Below are positions 48,953 through 54,786 of a stretch of DNA of 64,000 bases, one piece after another. Within the stretch, counting starts at the first letter, position 1; every line of letters begins with the position of its first letter. The stretch spans positions 96,001-160,000 of the forward strand of contig CAZALK010000006.1 in the NCBI GenBank assembly GCA_964486045.1, written 5' to 3'. A program made the translations under genes and the position numbers. Source of the stretch: an uncultured archaeon (GTDB lineage Archaea; Asgardarchaeota; Lokiarchaeia; Sigyniarchaeales; SOKP01). Under the pieces are notes generated by a model. The model did no database searches and was not told the DNA's origin. It was given only the letters and a program-made list of their open reading frames with translations.

Positions 48953-49390
48953 TTACTCCCATAATTCAAGAAAATCAAATTCTGAAAATGCGTTAATTCG
49001 TGGAAAATGCTTTTTATCCTTTGTTATTAAAATAATCTTGTTGGCGATTGCTATAGAAGCATTTAATAAATCAAATTGAGGCACTCGCATCCCGCTTCTG
49101 TCCAATTCCGCACAAATCTCTCCATATATTTTACTAGAATTTGAATCTAATGTTTTTATTTCGGAAAGATTAGTGATAAAATTATTTAATTTTTTTGCTT
49201 CAACAATTTGTTTCTGTTTTGATTTTAGAGTATAGACTCCGTACCACAATTCACATGAAGTTAAATAAGTAATCGTTAAATCTGTTCCTTGTGATATTAA
49301 ATTTTTGATTTTTTTTTCTACTTTTGAATCATTTCCTCTCAAAAAATCAATAGCTATATTTGTTTCTACTATTTTAATCATTCTTTCCAC
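48953..49390 (-). CDS. vapC: PIN-domain toxin (VapC family)
   Basis: IVETNIAID, ELWYG, FDLLNASIA, LITKDKKHF. Confidence 0.88.
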   Translation of the reverse strand: MERMIKIVETNIAIDFLRGNDSKVEKKIKNLISQGTDLTITYLTSCELWYGVYTLKSKQKQIVEAKKLNNFITNLSEIKTLDSNSSKIYGEICAELDRSGMRVPQFDLLNASIAIANKIILITKDKKHFPRINAFSEFDFLELWE

Positions 49391-49601
49391 TACCAGTTAA
49401 ATTTTCCTCTCTGATTTTTGTTAATTTTTCCCCCAATCCTTCCCATAATTCAGGATCAAATTTTTTTTGCATCATTAACCAAGGATTTTTTTTCGTAGAT
49501 ACAAGTCTCTCAATCACATTTGAAAAAGATTCTCCTTCCCTTTTTTCTTTCTTTAATAATTTAAAAACTCGTTCTGATAATGAAATTGTTTTTTGAGTCA
49601 T
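49374..49601 (-). CDS. vapB: Archaeal VapB-type antitoxin
   Basis: KTISLSE..F..LK.EKREGESFS.VIERL; overlaps the toxin gene. Confidence 0.85.
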   Translation of the reverse strand: MTQKTISLSERVFKLLKKEKREGESFSNVIERLVSTKKNPWLMMQKKFDPELWEGLGEKLTKIREENLTGSGKND

Positions 49602-50188: not shown

Positions 50189-50310
50189 AAGTATCTCAGA
50201 ATTTGATCTAATTTTTTAATACTTCAAATTCTTAAGCTCAAGTTTAAGTTAATTAGGTATCTCAAAATTTGACCTAATTTTTTAGTTCTTCAAATTCTTG
50301 TTCTCAAGTA
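50189..50310. repeat. Two imperfect about 55-bp direct repeats upstream of the histone gene
   Basis: GTATCTCA.AATTT.GA.CTAATTTTTTA.T.CTTCAAATTCTT...CTCAAGT occurs twice. Confidence 0.65.
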
Positions 50311-50549
50311 TTAAATTTGCGGAACATCAGGCTTCATTAATATTAACACTTCTCAATTTTAACGAAAAAAGAGAATCGCACGAGATTGATCATTTTCATA
50401 GTTTGGAATTTTGTCGTGTATTTTTTTATATTTCTTTTCCCATAAAATTAAGTTAAGGTAAAAATCTTTAAATAAGTAAAAGATAATTATCTATATAACA
50501 AACTCTTTAAAAATAACAAAATTTAATAAAATTATAAAAAATTATAAGT

Positions 50550-50554
50550 GGAGG
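50550..50554 (+). promoter_or_regulatory. Shine-Dalgarno site of the histone gene
   Basis: GGAGG 8 nt upstream of ATG 50563. Confidence 0.7.
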
Positions 50555-50562
50555 AAAAAAAA

Positions 50563-50856
50563 ATGGCAGGTTCTGAATATATTAGTTGGAGTCCTATTAG
50601 GCGTCTTATGAAACTATAATAATCGACTGGATTATTTCTTCAAAATAATGGCGCTTTAATCGTTGCTCGTGATGCAGTTAACGAGCTCGTTGAATGGATG
50701 GGTAGTTCCGCTGAGAAACTTACTAAAAATGCTTTAGTTTTAACTAAACACTCTAAAAGAAAGAAAATCACGAGTTTCCTTTAGAATTCCTAAAAAAGCG
50801 TGAAAAATGATATTCTTTTAGCGATTAAATACTTCAAATCAGTTAAAATAAGCTAA
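50563..50856 (+). CDS. Archaeal histone (77 aa after removing two 30-nt introns): join(50563..50614,50645..50774,50805..50856)
   Basis: Spliced product MAGSEYISWSPIRRLMKHNGALIVARDAVNELVEWMGSSAEKLTKNALVLTKHSKRKKITRNDILLAIKYFKSVKIS has histone-fold hallmarks (PI.RLMK..GA..V, H.KRK.I...DI.LA); intact RBS and poly-T terminator. Confidence 0.88.
50615..50644 (+). other. Putative BHB/BHL-type intron 1 of the histone mRNA (30 nt)
   Basis: Central helix TGAA/TTCA, 3-nt bulges ACT and AAA, inner stem AATAATC/GATTATT, outer exon stem; carries in-frame TAA TAA. Confidence 0.8.
50775..50804 (+). other. Putative BHB-type intron 2 of the histone mRNA (30 nt)
   Basis: Central helix CACG/CGTG, 3-nt bulges AGT and AAA, inner stem TTTAG/CTAAA, distal exon stem CTAAAAGAA/TTCTTTTAG; carries in-frame TAG and TAA. 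Confidence 0.82.
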
Positions 50857-50878
50857 TGCGAACTTAAAATTATATATC

Positions 50879-50896
50879 TTTTTTTTTTTTTTTTTT
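50879..50896 (+). terminator. Oligo-T archaeal terminator after the histone gene
   Basis: T18 run 22 nt after the stop codon. Confidence 0.6.
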
Positions 50897-50944
50897 ATAT
50901 TCTTATCTTATCAAAATTGATACAATTCAAGTTAAATGTTCCTC

Positions 50945-51430
50945 TTACTCCCATAATTCAAGAAAATCAAATTCTGAAAATGTGTTAATTCGTGGAAAAT
51001 GCTTTTTATCTTTTGTTATTAAAATAACTTTATTTGAAATTGCTATAGAAGCATTCAATAAATCAAATTGAGGCACTTGCTTCCCACTTTTATCTAAATC
51101 CGCGCAAATTTCGTCATAAATTTTACTAGAATTTGAATCTAATGTTTTTATTTCGGAAAGGTTGCTAATAAAACTATTTAATTTTTTTGCTTCAACAATT
51201 TGTTTCTGTTTAGATTTTAGAGCATAGATGCCGTACCACAATTCACCTGAAGTTATTTGAGTTATTGTTAAATCATTTCCCTGTGATATTAAATTTTTGA
51301 TTTTTCTTTCTACTTTTTCAAATATTTCTTGAATAAATTTTTTTGCCTTTTCAGGTGAACCTTTTGAAATATATTCAGATATAGCATCGAGGTCTAAGAG
51401 AGCGTCGGTAGACCATTTTATGTCAACCAT
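50945..51430 (-). CDS. Chimeric ParE/RelE N-terminus fused to a truncated VapC (PIN) copy
   Basis: First about 40 aa are ParE-like (IKWSTDALLDLDAISEYISKGSPEKAKKF); the remainder is nearly identical to 48953-49390 from KVE onward. Confidence 0.75.
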   Translation of the reverse strand: MVDIKWSTDALLDLDAISEYISKGSPEKAKKFIQEIFEKVERKIKNLISQGNDLTITQITSGELWYGIYALKSKQKQIVEAKKLNSFISNLSEIKTLDSNSSKIYDEICADLDKSGKQVPQFDLLNASIAISNKVILITKDKKHFPRINTFSEFDFLELWE

Positions 51431-51984: not shown

Positions 51985-54786
51985 TTATTTCAAAAATAAT
52001 CGTATAGTAAAAGTGGATCCTTTATTCCGTCCTTTAGATTTTACAAAAATTTCACCTTTATGTAATTTAATGATTTCACTTGCGATATACAATCCAAGAC
52101 CTGGTCCTTCAATATCCACATCCATGCGTTTTCCGTACCTTTCTATTTTACCAAATTTTTTAAACAGGGTTGTCATTTCTTTATCGGTTAATCCTACACC
52201 CGTGTCTCTTATGATTATATCCATAAAATTTTGATGTTTAACTGATTTGATATATACGTCACCATTGGGTTGGGTGTTCTTAACAGCATTAGATAATAGA
52301 TTTAAAATTGCTTTTTTAATCATTCCTTTATCTATGTCTGCAATTAAATCGGTAGGAAGCTCAAGATTTATGATTATTTTACGTTTGTCAGCCTGAAAAA
52401 CTAATACTTCAACACACTCCTTTATTATAAGATTTATATCTTCTCTTTTTATATTTATCCTTATTTGACCAGTTTCTATTTCAAAGGCGGTAATTAAATT
52501 ATCAACCATTTCTTTTAATCTATAACCTCCTTGATGGATAATTTTAATAACATTTTCTACTTCATTATTCATCTTGTCATTAAAATAATCTAAAAGAAAT
52601 TGAGAACCAGTCAAAATGGAAGTTAACGGAGTGTTTAGTTCATGGGAAATTCTTGATATAAGATCATTTCTTAATTGATCGAGTTCTTTTAATTGTTTTA
52701 TTTCTCTTTTTATCATATCATCAATTTTTTTTCTTTCTGTGTTATCGCTTACTAATCCAAAAACTTTAAATTCATTATTAATTTCCACTAGGCTCCATCT
52801 AGCAGAGATTGGTACAAAGTATCCTTTTTTATGTTTTATTCTACATTCTATAAATACAGCTTTTTTAGTTTCTAATGCTTTTTCAGCTGTTTCATTAAAC
52901 AAATTCAAATCTTTAAGGTGTACAAATTCCCTAAAATTCAATCCAATTAATTCCTCTGATTGATATCCAATTAAATTATTTATTTGGGGACTAATATAGG
53001 TTAGAATCCCACTAGGTTCAGCTTCCAACAAAACATCAGAAATGTTGTTTATTAAATTTTGGATTTTTTCCTCTGATTCCTTTAATTTTATAGTCCTATC
53101 CTCTACTTTTTGTTCTAAAATGTTACTCAATCTTCTATATTTCTGCTCTGATTTCTCCAATGACTTTAGTGTTTGACTATTAAAAAGCGATATTGAAGTT
53201 AATTCGGCAAATGCGGTAACTATCCTTGATTCTTCGTCTGTAAATTCCCTTTCCTCCCTTGTTAAACCCATCAAACCTTTTACCTCATCGTTAATTATTA
53301 ATGGGGCAATTAATACATTTTTGAGTGGAACATGCCCTTTGGGTAAGAATTTTATCCAATCACTAGTAGAAAAGTCATTATAGTACATTGTTTTTTTGGA
53401 TTTGATTACCTCAGCTCGCATTCCTCTAATTAGCATTGGTAAATCTGGATCTACTTCGTTTGTCAAACTTTTAGGATTTATAAAAATTTTTTGCTGTTCT
53501 TTCTTACTTGGTGCTAATATTGCAATATAACCTGCATCCGCTCCAATTAAATTATTACAAGAATTAAATATCATTCTTTGGGCTTTTTCAAAATTAATAT
53601 ATTGTAAAACCGCCGTTGAAGCATCAAAAAGCATTGAAATTTCTTTATTTCGATTTTTTAAAGCTTCTTCCGCCTCTTTGCGTTCGGTGATATCTCGAGC
53701 AACACTAATAATTGTGTTTTTTCCCCCGAACTTAAAAACTCGAGAGCTAATTTCAATAGGAACGATGTTTCCATCTTTTGTTATATGTTCAGCTTCTATC
53801 ATGAGCTTTCCTTTTTCATGAAGAGTTTTTATATTTGCTTGTATATCAATTTTATATCCTGGAGGAGTTATATCTTTAGGAGTCAACTTCAATAATTCTT
53901 CTCTGGTATAACCCAATCGTTCGCAAGCTGTTTGATTTACCTCAATAAATTGACTACCTCTGTCATGAATGAAAATCGCATCATTAGTATTTTCAAATAG
54001 GGCTCTAAATTTTTCCTCAGAATTTTTTAAAGCTTCTTCCGCCTCTTTGCGTTCGGTGATATCTCGAGCAACACTAATAATTGTGTTTTTTCCCCCGAAC
54101 TTAAAAACTCGAGAGCTAATTTCAATAGGAACGATGTTTCCATCTTTTGTTATATGTTCAGCTTCTATCATGAGCTTTCCTTTTTCATGAAGAGTTTTTA
54201 TATTTGCTTGTATATCAATTTTATATCCTGGAGGAGTTATATCTTTAGGAGTCAACTTCAATAATTCTTCTCTGGTATAACCCAATCGTTCGCAAGCTGT
54301 TTGATTTACCTCAATAAATTGACTACCTCTGTCATGAATGAAAATCGCATCATTAGTATTTTCAAATAGGGCTCTAAATTTTTCCTCAGAATTTTTTAAA
54401 GCTTCTTCCGCCTCTTTGCGTTCGGTGATATCTCGAGCAACACTAATAATTGTGTTTTTTCCCCCGAACTTAAAAACTCGAGAGCTAATTTCAATAGGAA
54501 CGATGTTTCCATCTTTTGTTATATGTTCAGCTTCTATCATGAGCTTTCCTTTTTCATGAAGAGTTTTTATATTTGCTTGTATATCAATTTTATATCCTGG
54601 AGGAGTTATATCTTTAGGAGTCAACTTCAATAATTCTTCTCTGGTATAACCCAATCGTTCGCAAGCTGTTTGATTTACCTCAATAAATTGACTACCTCTG
54701 TCATGAATGAAAATCGCATCATTAGTATTTTCAAATAGGGCTCTAAATTTTTCCTCAGATTCTTTAATTTCTTGTTCTGTCTTCAT
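51985..54786 (-). CDS. Multi-PAS/GAF histidine kinase
   Basis: 3 identical PAS, GAF, PAS, SHELNTPL, NLLSNAVK, DTGVG, GPGLGL. Confidence 0.92.
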   Translation of the reverse strand: MKTEQEIKESEEKFRALFENTNDAIFIHDRGSQFIEVNQTACERLGYTREELLKLTPKDITPPGYKIDIQANIKTLHEKGKLMIEAEHITKDGNIVPIEISSRVFKFGGKNTIISVARDITERKEAEEALKNSEEKFRALFENTNDAIFIHDRGSQFIEVNQTACERLGYTREELLKLTPKDITPPGYKIDIQANIKTLHEKGKLMIEAEHITKDGNIVPIEISSRVFKFGGKNTIISVARDITERKEAEEALKNSEEKFRALFENTNDAIFIHDRGSQFIEVNQTACERLGYTREELLKLTPKDITPPGYKIDIQANIKTLHEKGKLMIEAEHITKDGNIVPIEISSRVFKFGGKNTIISVARDITERKEAEEALKNRNKEISMLFDASTAVLQYINFEKAQRMIFNSCNNLIGADAGYIAILAPSKKEQQKIFINPKSLTNEVDPDLPMLIRGMRAEVIKSKKTMYYNDFSTSDWIKFLPKGHVPLKNVLIAPLIINDEVKGLMGLTREEREFTDEESRIVTAFAELTSISLFNSQTLKSLEKSEQKYRRLSNILEQKVEDRTIKLKESEEKIQNLINNISDVLLEAEPSGILTYISPQINNLIGYQSEELIGLNFREFVHLKDLNLFNETAEKALETKKAVFIECRIKHKKGYFVPISARWSLVEINNEFKVFGLVSDNTERKKIDDMIKREIKQLKELDQLRNDLISRISHELNTPLTSILTGSQFLLDYFNDKMNNEVENVIKIIHQGGYRLKEMVDNLITAFEIETGQIRINIKREDINLIIKECVEVLVFQADKRKIIINLELPTDLIADIDKGMIKKAILNLLSNAVKNTQPNGDVYIKSVKHQNFMDIIIRDTGVGLTDKEMTTLFKKFGKIERYGKRMDVDIEGPGLGLYIASEIIKLHKGEIFVKSKGRNKGSTFTIRLFLK
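53653..54759. repeat. Perfect tandem triplication, 3 x 369 bp (PAS module)
   Basis: Nucleotide-identical units at 369-bp period. Confidence 0.9.

What the first reader, a model, noticed from the sequence alone, without database searches (positions are those of the whole stretch)
50563..50856. Asgard-type histone gene split by two bulge-helix-bulge introns: candidate endonuclease-spliced mRNA
Seen: the gene has a GGAGG RBS, an ATG and a T18 terminator, and its histone-fold frame is broken only by two 30-nt inserts, each with two in-frame stops. Each insert and its flanks form a 4-bp central helix with a 3-nt bulge 3' of it on both strands. Cutting after the second nucleotide of each bulge gives AAA C|AT AAT (K-H-N-G) and ACG AG|A AAT (T-R-N-D) and a complete 77-aa histone with no other lesion. 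Established: that cut position is the rule for the archaeal tRNA splicing endonuclease (EndA), and BHB introns are typical of tRNA and rRNA, with cbf5 in some Crenarchaeota the classic rare mRNA case. Inference: histone expression here depends on EndA/RtcB splicing of an mRNA, which would mean multi-intron protein-coding genes in the closest archaeal relatives of eukaryotes. Standard gene callers would miss such genes. Unspliced mRNA yields only an 18-aa peptide.
Basis: partly seen in the sequence, partly recalled or inferred. Interest (0 to 1): 0.97.

Follow-up and report, generated by a model that had tools for sequence, protein, structure and literature searches.

The report
Histone gene split by two mini-introns
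A histone gene of a Lokiarchaeon (Asgard archaeon) is interrupted by two 30-base inserts with the RNA shape that the tRNA-splicing enzyme cuts. Related genomes and other essential genes show the same kind of insert, so these archaea probably splice many of their protein-coding messages, which has been shown for only one archaeal gene so far.

Summary
Window 50563-50856 (+) has a GGAGG, an ATG and a T18 run. Its histone frame is broken only by two exact 30-nt inserts (50615-50644, 50775-50804), each with two in-frame stops.

- **Junctions.** Removing the inserts at the bulge-helix-bulge (BHB) cut sites gives a 77-aa histone (Pfam PF00808, 36 bits). About 25 uninterrupted same-genus orthologues read exactly the predicted junctions, MKHNG and (I/V)TR(N/D)D.
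- **Other histone copies.** Homology searches found 30-31-nt inserts at five positions in nine histone copies from eight genomes of the family.
- **Other genes.** The same kind of insert sits in rpoA', EF-2, RNase HII, SelD and an AIR-synthase-like gene of this genome.
- **Structure test.** Over 20 such inserts, 79 of 80 central-helix positions pair in the BHB register, against 15-33 of 80 in slid registers. Compensatory changes occur between species.
- **Enzymes.** The genome encodes two EndA paralogues and RtcB.
- **Artefact check.** DNA contigs from three studies hold the inserts.

The best reading (about 0.8) is mRNA introns spliced by EndA and RtcB. No RNA data were available, so splicing is inferred, not shown. 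I found nothing in print beyond cbf5 in Crenarchaeota. This scan has already noted the same phenomenon on other DNA, in this genome, in other Asgard archaea and in DPANN archaea.

The parts
50550..50554 (+). GGAGG ribosome-binding site, 8 nt before the ATG
   Evidence: read directly
50563..50614 (+). exon 1 (52 nt; MAGSEYISWSPIRRLMK plus the first base of the His codon)
   Evidence: orthologue alignment
50615..50644 (+). intron 1, 30 nt, in-frame TAA TAA; hairpin 50618-50624/50630-50636 with loop 50625-50629
   Evidence: Absent from about 25 orthologues; present in G019, G087 and, with another hairpin, G150
50609..50612 (+). central BHB helix of intron 1, 5' strand (UGAA). It pairs with 50639-50642 (UUCA). 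Bulges are 50613-50615 (AC|U) and 50643-50645 (AA|A)
50600..50608 (+). exon-exon outer helix of intron 1, 5' strand (GGCGUCUUA). It pairs with 50646-50655 (UAA-U-GGCGCU)
   Evidence: minimum-free-energy fold, z = -3.5. U-G becomes C-G in G019 and G087
50645..50774 (+). exon 2 (130 nt)
50775..50804 (+). intron 2, 30 nt, in-frame TAG and TAA; hairpin 50780-50784/50790-50794
   Evidence: The same position is occupied in G019, G087 and, with another hairpin, G007
50769..50772 (+). central BHB helix of intron 2, 5' strand (CACG). It pairs with 50799-50802 (CGUG). Bulges are 50773-50775 (AG|U) and 50803-50805 (AA|A)
50753..50761 (+). distal exon-exon helix around intron 2 (CUAAAAGAA). It pairs with 50813-50821 (UUCUUUUAG)
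   Evidence: G007 has CCAAGAGAA/UUCUCUUGG at the same place
50805..50856 (+). exon 3 (52 nt including the TAA stop at 50854-50856)
50879..50896 (+). T18 run, a likely archaeal transcription terminator
   Evidence: read directly; its function is inferred

Best explanation
The gene encodes an ordinary archaeal (HMf-type) histone whose pre-mRNA carries two 30-nt bulge-helix-bulge introns.

Proposed mechanism: in the transcript, four exon bases just upstream of each 5' splice site pair with four intron bases just upstream of the 3' splice site. That leaves a 3-nt bulge after the helix on each strand. An intron hairpin, and partly an exon-exon helix, hold the structure. The tRNA-splicing endonuclease EndA cuts after the second base of each bulge. 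Here it is probably a two-subunit, broad-specificity enzyme. RtcB then joins the exons and probably circularises the introns. The result is a 77-aa open frame.

Shown: the anatomy, the exact match of the predicted junctions to intronless orthologues, the recurrence and covariation of the motif, and the presence of the enzymes.

Inferred: that cutting and joining occur in the cell. Unspliced RNA would give only an 18-aa peptide.

The gene is one instance of a wider system. In this Lokiarchaeial family, 30-31-nt (and at least one roughly 85-nt) BHB introns come and go in many protein-coding genes, including essential ones.
For: 1. Junctions. The spliced product is a full-length PF00808 histone. 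An intronless orthologue aligns without gaps to solved archaeal histones (1HTA, 1B67) across both junctions. About 25 same-genus orthologues lack the inserts and read KHNG and TR(N/D)D, the codons the BHB cut rule creates from split codons.

2. Recurrence found by homology, not by motif. There are 30-nt inserts at five positions in histone genes of G000 (C6 and C12), G019, G087, G007, G020, G079, G100 and G150, plus one 31-nt insert that shifts the frame. Every one has the 4-bp helix at the register that restores the frame.

3. Register test on 20 inserts. 79/80 helix cells pair and 19/20 helices are complete, against 15-33/80 and 0-1/20 when slid by 1-5 nt. The null for one register is 0.025.

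4. Covariation.
- rpoA' intron, G000 versus G017: A-U to G-C in the central helix and G.U to U-A in the hairpin.
- Position C: GGCU/GGCU, AGCU/AGCU and AGCU/GGUU, with unrelated hairpins.
- Position A in G150: same central helix, wholly different 8-bp hairpin.

5. Essential genes. rpoA' has one DNA match in the genome, and EF-2 showed no second copy in the DNA search. Both carry such inserts inside conserved motifs (GHFGH|IELARP, AH|IDHGKTT), and most relatives lack them.

6. Enzymes. There are two EndA paralogues, one nearest to the catalytic subunit of the A. pernix/P. aerophilum heterotetramer, and one RtcB.

7. Not an artefact. DNA contigs of three studies hold both inserts and none skips them.

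8. Literature. The cut rule (between the 2nd and 3rd bulge residue) and the link between relaxed motifs in mRNA and hetero-tetrameric EndA are documented for cbf5 (PMC2738675).
Against: - No RNA evidence. No RNA run holds the locus, and the spliced proteins are not in the 15-billion-protein collection.
- Both window motifs are relaxed. The helix that should bound the 3' bulge is 3 bp (intron 1) or 1 bp (intron 2), and the intron 2 hairpin is weak.
- In G019 the central helix of intron 2 has one G.A mismatch.
- Among the three carriers of the same two introns, exon changes are few and not clearly under purifying selection (3-6 non-synonymous against 2-3 synonymous changes, pN/pS 0.26-0.53).
- The genome has four other intact histone genes, so this copy is not provably needed.
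- Crude genome-wide motif scans show no statistical excess of BHB-like 30-mers over background. The system can be demonstrated only gene by gene.
Confidence: 0.8

Rival explanations
1. This histone copy, and its C12 paralogue, is a decaying or silenced gene. On this reading the inserts are hairpin insertions that inactivated it, and the cell relies on its four intact histone genes.
For: Four uninterrupted histone genes exist in the genome. pN/pS among the three carriers is 0.26-0.53 on only 5-9 changes, which cannot be told apart from relaxed selection. The usual stop after KYF has mutated, adding 1-6 residues in the carriers.
Against: - The exons have no frameshift or stop in three species, and the RBS, ATG and terminator are kept.
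- The inserts obey a precise RNA geometry that a random insertion would not.
- The same kind of insert sits in rpoA' and EF-2, which cannot be pseudogenes.
- In G000 both members of this otherwise universally kept histone subfamily carry introns.
Confidence: 0.08
2. The inserts are dealt with by a mechanism other than EndA/RtcB. Candidates are translational bypassing (a ribosome hop, as in T4 gene 60 or the byps of Magnusiomyces mitochondria) or an unknown RNA-processing activity.
For: The inserts are short, mostly carry stops right after the take-off region, and contain a hairpin. These features are shared with bypass elements (my own knowledge). In-frame deletions shifted by 1-3 nt would also give plausible products, KNNG or TKND.
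Against: - There are no matching take-off and landing codons.
- The conserved His and Arg codons are assembled from bases on both sides of the insert, which a hop cannot do.
- A 31-nt insert in G100 needs exact removal to keep the frame.
- Bypassing does not predict the exon-intron 4-bp pairing seen in 19/20 cases, nor its covariation.
Confidence: 0.07
3. The inserts are assembly or sequencing artefacts, or they belong to a minority DNA variant.
For: The genome is a metagenome-assembled genome with 7.8% estimated contamination.
Against: Contigs of runs from three studies hold both inserts with 0-4 differences, and no contig joins across them. The same inserts occur in independently assembled genomes at 91-93% identity.
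Confidence: 0.01

Closest known systems
BHB intron of the cbf5 (pseudouridine synthase) pre-mRNA in Desulfurococcales and Sulfolobales (Watanabe 2002; Yoshinari 2006; Yokobori 2009, PMC2738675)
   Same: A short intron inside a coding sequence, with a relaxed BHB motif and a cut between the 2nd and 3rd bulge residue. It is tied to a hetero-oligomeric EndA and shows presence/absence among relatives.
   Different: cbf5 is one gene with one intron, in Crenarchaeota. Here there are two introns in one small gene, at least five intron positions in one histone family, and further introns in rpoA', EF-2, RNase HII, SelD and an AIR-synthase-like gene of the same Lokiarchaeial genome. Nearly all are exactly 30 nt with an AA|A 3' bulge. 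cbf5 splicing is shown by cDNA; this is not.
[quoted passage not shown]
   Same: The same motif and presumably the same enzymes. The same lineage-level tendency to accumulate many non-canonical introns. Two EndA paralogues per genome.
   Different: Those papers treat tRNA genes only. Here the host is an mRNA, so the exon half of the motif must be built from coding sequence, and splicing competes with translation.
BHB intron in the 5' UTR of Haloferax volcanii HVO_1309 (PMC7714728)
   Same: An mRNA substrate of EndA, confirmed in vitro and as a circular RNA.
   Different: It lies in the UTR, not in the reading frame. It is a single case, in an organism with a homodimeric enzyme.
Unconventional cytoplasmic splicing of HAC1/XBP1 mRNA (Ire1 cut, tRNA-ligase or RtcB join); my own knowledge
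   Same: A small (26 nt in XBP1) intron is removed from a coding mRNA by an endonuclease that reads paired stem-loops, and the exons are joined by the tRNA ligase. Splicing decides which protein is made.
   Different: The nuclease is different (Ire1, not EndA). It is a single regulated target and is eukaryotic. It works alike but is not a member of the same family.
Translational bypass elements (T4 gene 60; byps in Magnusiomyces mitochondria); my own knowledge
   Same: Short inserts bearing stops in otherwise intact genes that gene callers miss.
   Different: Those need matching take-off and landing codons and leave the RNA uncut. Neither fits here.

Membership tests
Archaeal BHB (EndA-type) intron | 4-bp central helix formed by the strand just 5' of the 5' cut and the strand just 5' of the 3' cut | tested here: met
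   UGAA/UUCA and CACG/CGUG, 4/4 Watson-Crick pairs each. Over 20 related inserts, 79/80 cells pair, against 15-33/80 in slid registers.
Archaeal BHB (EndA-type) intron | Two 3-nt bulges on opposite strands, each closed by an outer helix (h from the exons, h' in the intron): the strict hBHBh' form | tested here: inconclusive
   Intron 1: h' is 7 bp but set off by a 2x2 mismatch; h is 3 bp, then a 1-nt bulge, then 6 bp. Intron 2: h' is weak (5-bp hairpin further in); h is 1 bp, with a 9-bp helix 8-10 nt away. This is a relaxed motif. Several sister introns (G007, G020, C12 intron 1, rpoA', RNase HII) have h' abutting with 6-10 bp.
Archaeal BHB (EndA-type) intron | Cutting after the 2nd bulge nucleotide on both strands yields the functional product | tested here: met
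   It gives KHNG and TRND, identical to the intronless orthologues, and a full-length PF00808 match. It also removes exactly 31 nt in G100. The rule is as stated in PMC2738675.
Archaeal BHB (EndA-type) intron | Structure kept by compensatory change | tested here: met
   For the window's own introns only the outer helix shows it (U-G to C-G), and changes in intron 1 are confined to the loop. Sister introns show clear compensatory changes: rpoA' G000 versus G017 and positions A and C across genera.
Archaeal BHB (EndA-type) intron | Host encodes EndA of a type that accepts relaxed motifs, and the ligase RtcB | tested here: met
   Two PF01974 genes (C7:36595, C10:137165) and one PF01139 gene. The C7 protein is nearest to the catalytic chains of heterotetrameric enzymes (3P1Z_B, 3AJV_B, 2ZYZ_B). 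The quaternary form is inferred.
Archaeal BHB (EndA-type) intron | Excision and exon ligation observed in RNA (cDNA junctions, circular intron, in vitro cleavage) | not testable with these tools
   No RNA run was listed for the locus. There was no exact hit for the spliced proteins.
Archaeal histone (HMf family, Pfam PF00808) | Full-length histone-fold match above the curated cut-off | tested here: met
   The spliced product scores 36.2 bits against a 21.4 cut-off, profile positions 6-65 of 65. An intronless orthologue aligns without gaps to HMfA (1HTA, 1B67).
Translational bypass element | Matching take-off and landing codons flanking the gap | tested here: not met
   No matched codons exist. 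The conserved codons are split by the insert.

The most novel reading that the evidence does not exclude
A family of Lokiarchaeia maintains a dynamic, genome-wide population of tRNA-type (BHB) mini-introns in protein-coding genes. These include multi-intron genes and core genes such as RNA polymerase, EF-2 and histones. Introns are repeatedly gained and lost at the same few sites. Expression of much of the proteome, chromatin proteins included, therefore depends on EndA/RtcB mRNA splicing. That would be a spliceosome-independent 'genes in pieces' state in Asgard archaea.
Probability: 0.55. Interest if true: 0.93.

Novelty: new variant of a known kind. Interest (0 to 1): 0.86.

Why it matters
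Coding-sequence introns cut by the tRNA-splicing endonuclease have been shown for a single archaeal gene, cbf5 in some Crenarchaeota. A 2020 survey still calls it the only case (PMC7714728).

Here the same mechanism appears to serve many genes of one Asgard lineage. It includes two introns in a 234-nt histone gene, and introns inside the catalytic motifs of RNA polymerase and EF-2. If confirmed, four things follow.

1. Gene callers systematically miss or truncate genes in these genomes. That distorts the gene inventories, completeness estimates and phylogenies used in work on the origin of eukaryotes.
2. mRNA splicing without a spliceosome would be routine in relatives of the eukaryotic ancestor. 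That makes questions about the cost, origin and spread of introns, and about separating RNA processing from translation, testable in archaea.
3. The near-fixed 30-nt length, the AA|A 3' bulge and the recurrence at the same codon positions in different paralogues point to an unknown, site-selective way of gaining introns.
4. Histone supply could be gated by splicing.

Tried and rejected
- **RNA evidence.** No RNA holder was listed for the locus in two run searches. Expression and splicing could not be examined.
- **Exact look-up of spliced proteins.** Four spliced histone proteins (G000 C6, G000 C12, G087, G019) are not in the collection of about 15 billion proteins.
- **Genome-wide census by descriptor.** I scanned for a 4-bp helix plus an intron hairpin, with and without ORF-joining and codon-usage filters. 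There was no excess at 30 nt over other lengths, or over slid registers. In a 33% G+C genome chance BHB-like motifs swamp the true ones, so true introns had to be picked out by conserved motifs and Pfam. I give no total count.
- **Exon-flank duplex energies, carriers against intronless orthologues.** Carriers rank 1st to 5th at positions B and C, but not at D and E, and some intronless genes are equally stable at A. This is suggestive only.
- **dN/dS after intron gain.** It is underpowered, with 5-9 changes.
- **Multi-copy mobile element.** Each intron sequence is unique in the genome. In-register similarity between introns is modest; the highest is 21-22 of 30 between intron 2 of the two G000 paralogues.
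- **Homing-endonuclease neighbour (a lead from earlier notes).** The neighbours are a ParE/PIN chimera and a VapB-like antitoxin. There is no homing endonuclease.
- **Rfam.** No family matches 50300-51000.
- **Aragorn listing of tRNA introns.** It was too unreliable for comparing bulge sequences.
- **Alternative genetic code or read-through.** Rejected, because all three stop codons occur inside the inserts, one insert is 31 nt, and ten extra residues would fall inside the EF-2 P-loop.

Full report
**What is there**

The region 50540-50900 of the + strand reads as a small gene. It has GGAGG at 50550-50554, ATG at 50563, a TAA stop at 50854-50856 and a run of 18 T at 50879-50896. In frame it translates as a histone-like sequence broken twice, by L**STGLFLQN and SFL*NS*KSVK. 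Taking out 50615-50644 and 50775-50804 (30 nt each) leaves 234 nt that encode 77 aa.

That product matches Pfam PF00808 (archaeal histone/CBF-NFY) over profile positions 6-65 of 65 at 36.2 bits. This is in the range of the four uninterrupted histone genes of the same genome (37-42 bits). The read-through product falls below the cut-off. The unspliced frame ends after 18 residues.

**The organism**

The window is contig 6 (96001-160000) of a 5.18-Mb, 45-contig, 33% G+C assembly. The closest public records holding the orthologous histone are metagenome-assembled genomes labelled Promethearchaeota/Promethearchaeia, the current name of the Lokiarchaeia, from marine sediments. 'Asgard' is therefore right.

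**Comparative test of the junctions**

A six-frame search of 40 relatives found uninterrupted orthologues at 82-93% identity in almost every genome of the genus. In a DNA alignment the two inserts of the window appear as clean 30-column gaps. The orthologues read ATGAAAC-ATAATGG (M K H N G) and ACxCG-xAAyGA (T R N/D D) across them.

The His codon and the Arg codon are each assembled from bases on both sides of an insert, exactly as the BHB cut rule predicts. One intronless orthologue aligns without any gap to the solved archaeal histones HMfA (1HTA, 1B67) across both junctions.

**More inserts, found by homology alone**

The same searches turned up further interrupted copies.

| Genome | Inserts |
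|---|---|
| G019, G087 | the same two inserts as the window, at 91-93% identity |
| G007 | a 30-nt insert at the window's second position, with an unrelated hairpin, in the other histone paralogue type |
| G020 | one insert after TRDD |
| G000 contig 12 (paralogue) | two inserts at two further positions (after HNGA-V and after KHSK) |
| G079, G100 | inserts at the first of those two positions |
| G100 | a 31-nt insert at the second of those positions, which shifts the frame |
| G150 (another genus) | a 30-nt insert at the window's first position, with the same central helix but a completely different 8-bp hairpin and, by chance, no stop codon |

In G000 both members of this otherwise universally kept histone subfamily are interrupted.

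**Is it a BHB motif?**

For each insert I asked whether the four bases ending 2 nt before the 5' boundary pair with the four bases ending 2 nt before the 3' boundary. This is the geometry in which both bulges lie 3' of the central helix and the cut falls after the second bulge base. The rule is stated for cbf5 in PMC2738675.

Both window introns have four Watson-Crick pairs, UGAA/UUCA and CACG/CGUG. I tested 20 inserts: 15 from histone genes and 5 from other genes. In the BHB register, 79 of 80 cells pair and 19 of 20 helices are complete. With the 3' strand slid by 1 to 5 nt either way, only 15-33 of 80 cells pair and 0-1 helices are complete.

In this genome a random position has such a helix with probability 0.025. 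With an abutting intron hairpin of 5 bp or more the probability is 0.0003. For a few inserts the boundary is ambiguous by up to four positions and I took the one that pairs. That cannot explain 13 of 13 homology-found inserts conforming (12 of them fully). The 3' bulge is AA|A in 17 of 20.

**Caveat on strictness**

The window's two motifs are relaxed.

- Intron 1 has a 7-bp hairpin separated from the 5' bulge by a 2x2 mismatch. Its exon-exon helix is 3 bp, then a bulged U, then 6 bp (fold z = -3.5).
- Intron 2 has only a 5-bp hairpin, 1 bp next to the 3' bulge, and a 9-bp exon-exon helix further out (z = -2.2).

Relaxed motifs in a non-tRNA context are what the hetero-tetrameric endonucleases of Crenarchaeota cut (PMC2738675). 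This genome has two EndA paralogues. One is nearest to the catalytic chains of the A. pernix and P. aerophilum heterotetramers. It also has one RtcB.

**Covariation**

- Between G000, G019 and G087, the differences in intron 1 all lie in the 5-nt loop, and the outer helix improves from U-G to C-G.
- In G019 intron 2 has one G.A mismatch in the central helix.
- The 30-nt intron of rpoA' is shared by G000 and G017. It differs by an A-U to G-C change in the central helix and a G.U to U-A change in the hairpin.
- The position-C histone introns have central helices GGCU/GGCU, AGCU/AGCU and AGCU/GGUU, with unrelated hairpins.
- The G150 intron keeps UGAA/UUCA with a new hairpin.

**Not a pseudogene phenomenon**

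A scan of the genome followed by inspection found the same 30-nt inserts in five other genes.

| Gene | Position in G000 | Junction restored by removal |
|---|---|---|
| RNA polymerase subunit A' | C13:44101-44130 | GHFGH/IELARP |
| EF-2 | C13:92018-92047 | AH/IDHGKTT |
| RNase HII | C1:474859-474888 | DEAGR/GPV |
| SelD-like gene | C1:759271-759300 | junction falls between the AIRS N- and C-terminal domain matches |
| AIR-synthase-like gene | C5:195271-195300 | junction falls between the AIRS N- and C-terminal domain matches |

Single Pfam domain matches run across the insert in rpoA' and RNase HII. In alignments with 15-19 relatives the EF-2 insert is absent from all of them. The rpoA' insert is absent from all but G017. 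Two other species carry an insert of about 85 nt four bases further on, which also fits the BHB register.

rpoA' gives a single DNA match in the genome. An insert with a stop codon in the zinc-clamp motif of the only RNA polymerase A' gene must be removed or bypassed for the cell to live.

**Not an artefact**

Contigs from runs of three studies cover 50450-50864 with both inserts and 0-4 differences. None joins across an insert. The contig-12 paralogue with its own introns is also seen in runs X1 and X2.

**What could not be shown**

No RNA run holds the locus, and the spliced proteins are not in the large protein collection. Splicing is therefore inferred.

Selection on the exons since intron gain cannot be measured. 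There are only 5-9 changes among the three carriers (pN/pS 0.26-0.53). Comparisons with intronless orthologues (dN/dS 0.01-0.08) mostly reflect the time before the gain.

My descriptor scans gave no genome-wide statistical excess, so I cannot give a count of introns.

The introns are single-copy sequences, and no homing endonuclease lies nearby. How they arrive is open. Introns occupy the same codon positions in different paralogue types with unrelated hairpins. Intron 2 of the two G000 paralogues is 21 of 30 identical although it sits 17 nt apart. Both facts hint at site-selective gain or sliding.

**Rivals**

- Translational bypassing does not fit. The conserved codons are split by the inserts, there are no matched take-off and landing codons, one insert is 31 nt, and bypassing predicts no exon-intron pairing.
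- Read-through or another genetic code does not fit. All three stop codons occur in the inserts.
- Decay of this particular histone copy cannot be fully excluded, because four other histone genes are intact. But intact exons, kept signals and a kept RNA geometry in three species argue against it.

**Comparison with the known**

The nearest described case is the cbf5 pre-mRNA intron of Crenarchaeota, with one UTR intron in Haloferax. Asgard tRNA genes are known to be heavily interrupted. In six full-text searches I found no paper describing BHB introns in Asgard protein-coding genes. The library lacks most subscription journals.

Earlier notes of this scan report the same phenomenon in other windows of this genome (fwdA, cdhA, GH57, adk, uL11, a Rab-like GTPase, rpoA', EF-2) and in other Asgard and DPANN genomes. 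I re-derived the rpoA', EF-2, AIR-synthase-like and contig-12 histone cases myself. The rest I treat as leads.

**Verdict**

It is of high interest because of the number and kind of genes involved and the lineage.

Noticed in passing
G000:C1:758899-758901 (L133:100-102): The SelD-like gene that carries a 30-nt BHB insert also has an in-frame TGA in the motif ...KIFG-TGA-SCKLG. That is the place of the catalytic Sec/Cys of selenophosphate synthetases (my own knowledge). It is probably a selenoprotein gene that needs both Sec decoding and splicing.
   Followed up: partly
L193 and L194 (G042:C159, G022:C59), rpoA': An insert of about 85 nt lies four bases downstream of the G000 rpoA' intron site. 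It also fits the BHB register (AUAU AG|A ... GUAU AA|A), so intron length is not always 30 nt.
   Followed up: partly
L226 (G100:C1:91600-92300, minus strand): This histone gene has two introns, one of them 31 nt. The reading frame shifts unless exactly 31 nt are removed at the BHB cut sites.
   Followed up: yes
L214 (G150:C95): A histone gene of another genus has a 30-nt BHB insert at the window's first intron position that happens to contain no stop codon. Gene callers would annotate it as a histone with a 10-residue loop insertion.
   Followed up: partly
window 50945-51430 (-): A 161-aa ORF is a chimera of the first 42 positions of a ParE toxin domain and most of a PIN domain (Pfam). It may be a fused or rearranged toxin-antitoxin remnant, or itself an interrupted gene. 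A VapB-like antitoxin lies at 49374-49601 (-).
   Followed up: partly
window 51985-54786 (-): A 933-aa sensor histidine kinase has three nearly identical tandem PAS-type modules of about 123 aa at its N-terminus, which suggests a recent internal triplication.
   Followed up: no
G000, whole genome: Aragorn finds only 31 tRNA genes, 20 of them with introns and several mistyped (for example 'tRNA-Stop' and 'tRNA-Pyl'). This suggests many tRNA genes are hidden by multiple or non-canonical introns, as published for other Asgard archaea.
   Followed up: partly
window 50775-50804 versus G000:C12:112898-112927: The second introns of the two G000 histone paralogues are 21 of 30 identical in register, and the hairpin part is 17 of 23 identical. 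Yet they sit 17 nt apart in the coding sequence, each with a 3' strand matched to its own upstream exon. This may be intron sliding or re-insertion.
   Followed up: partly
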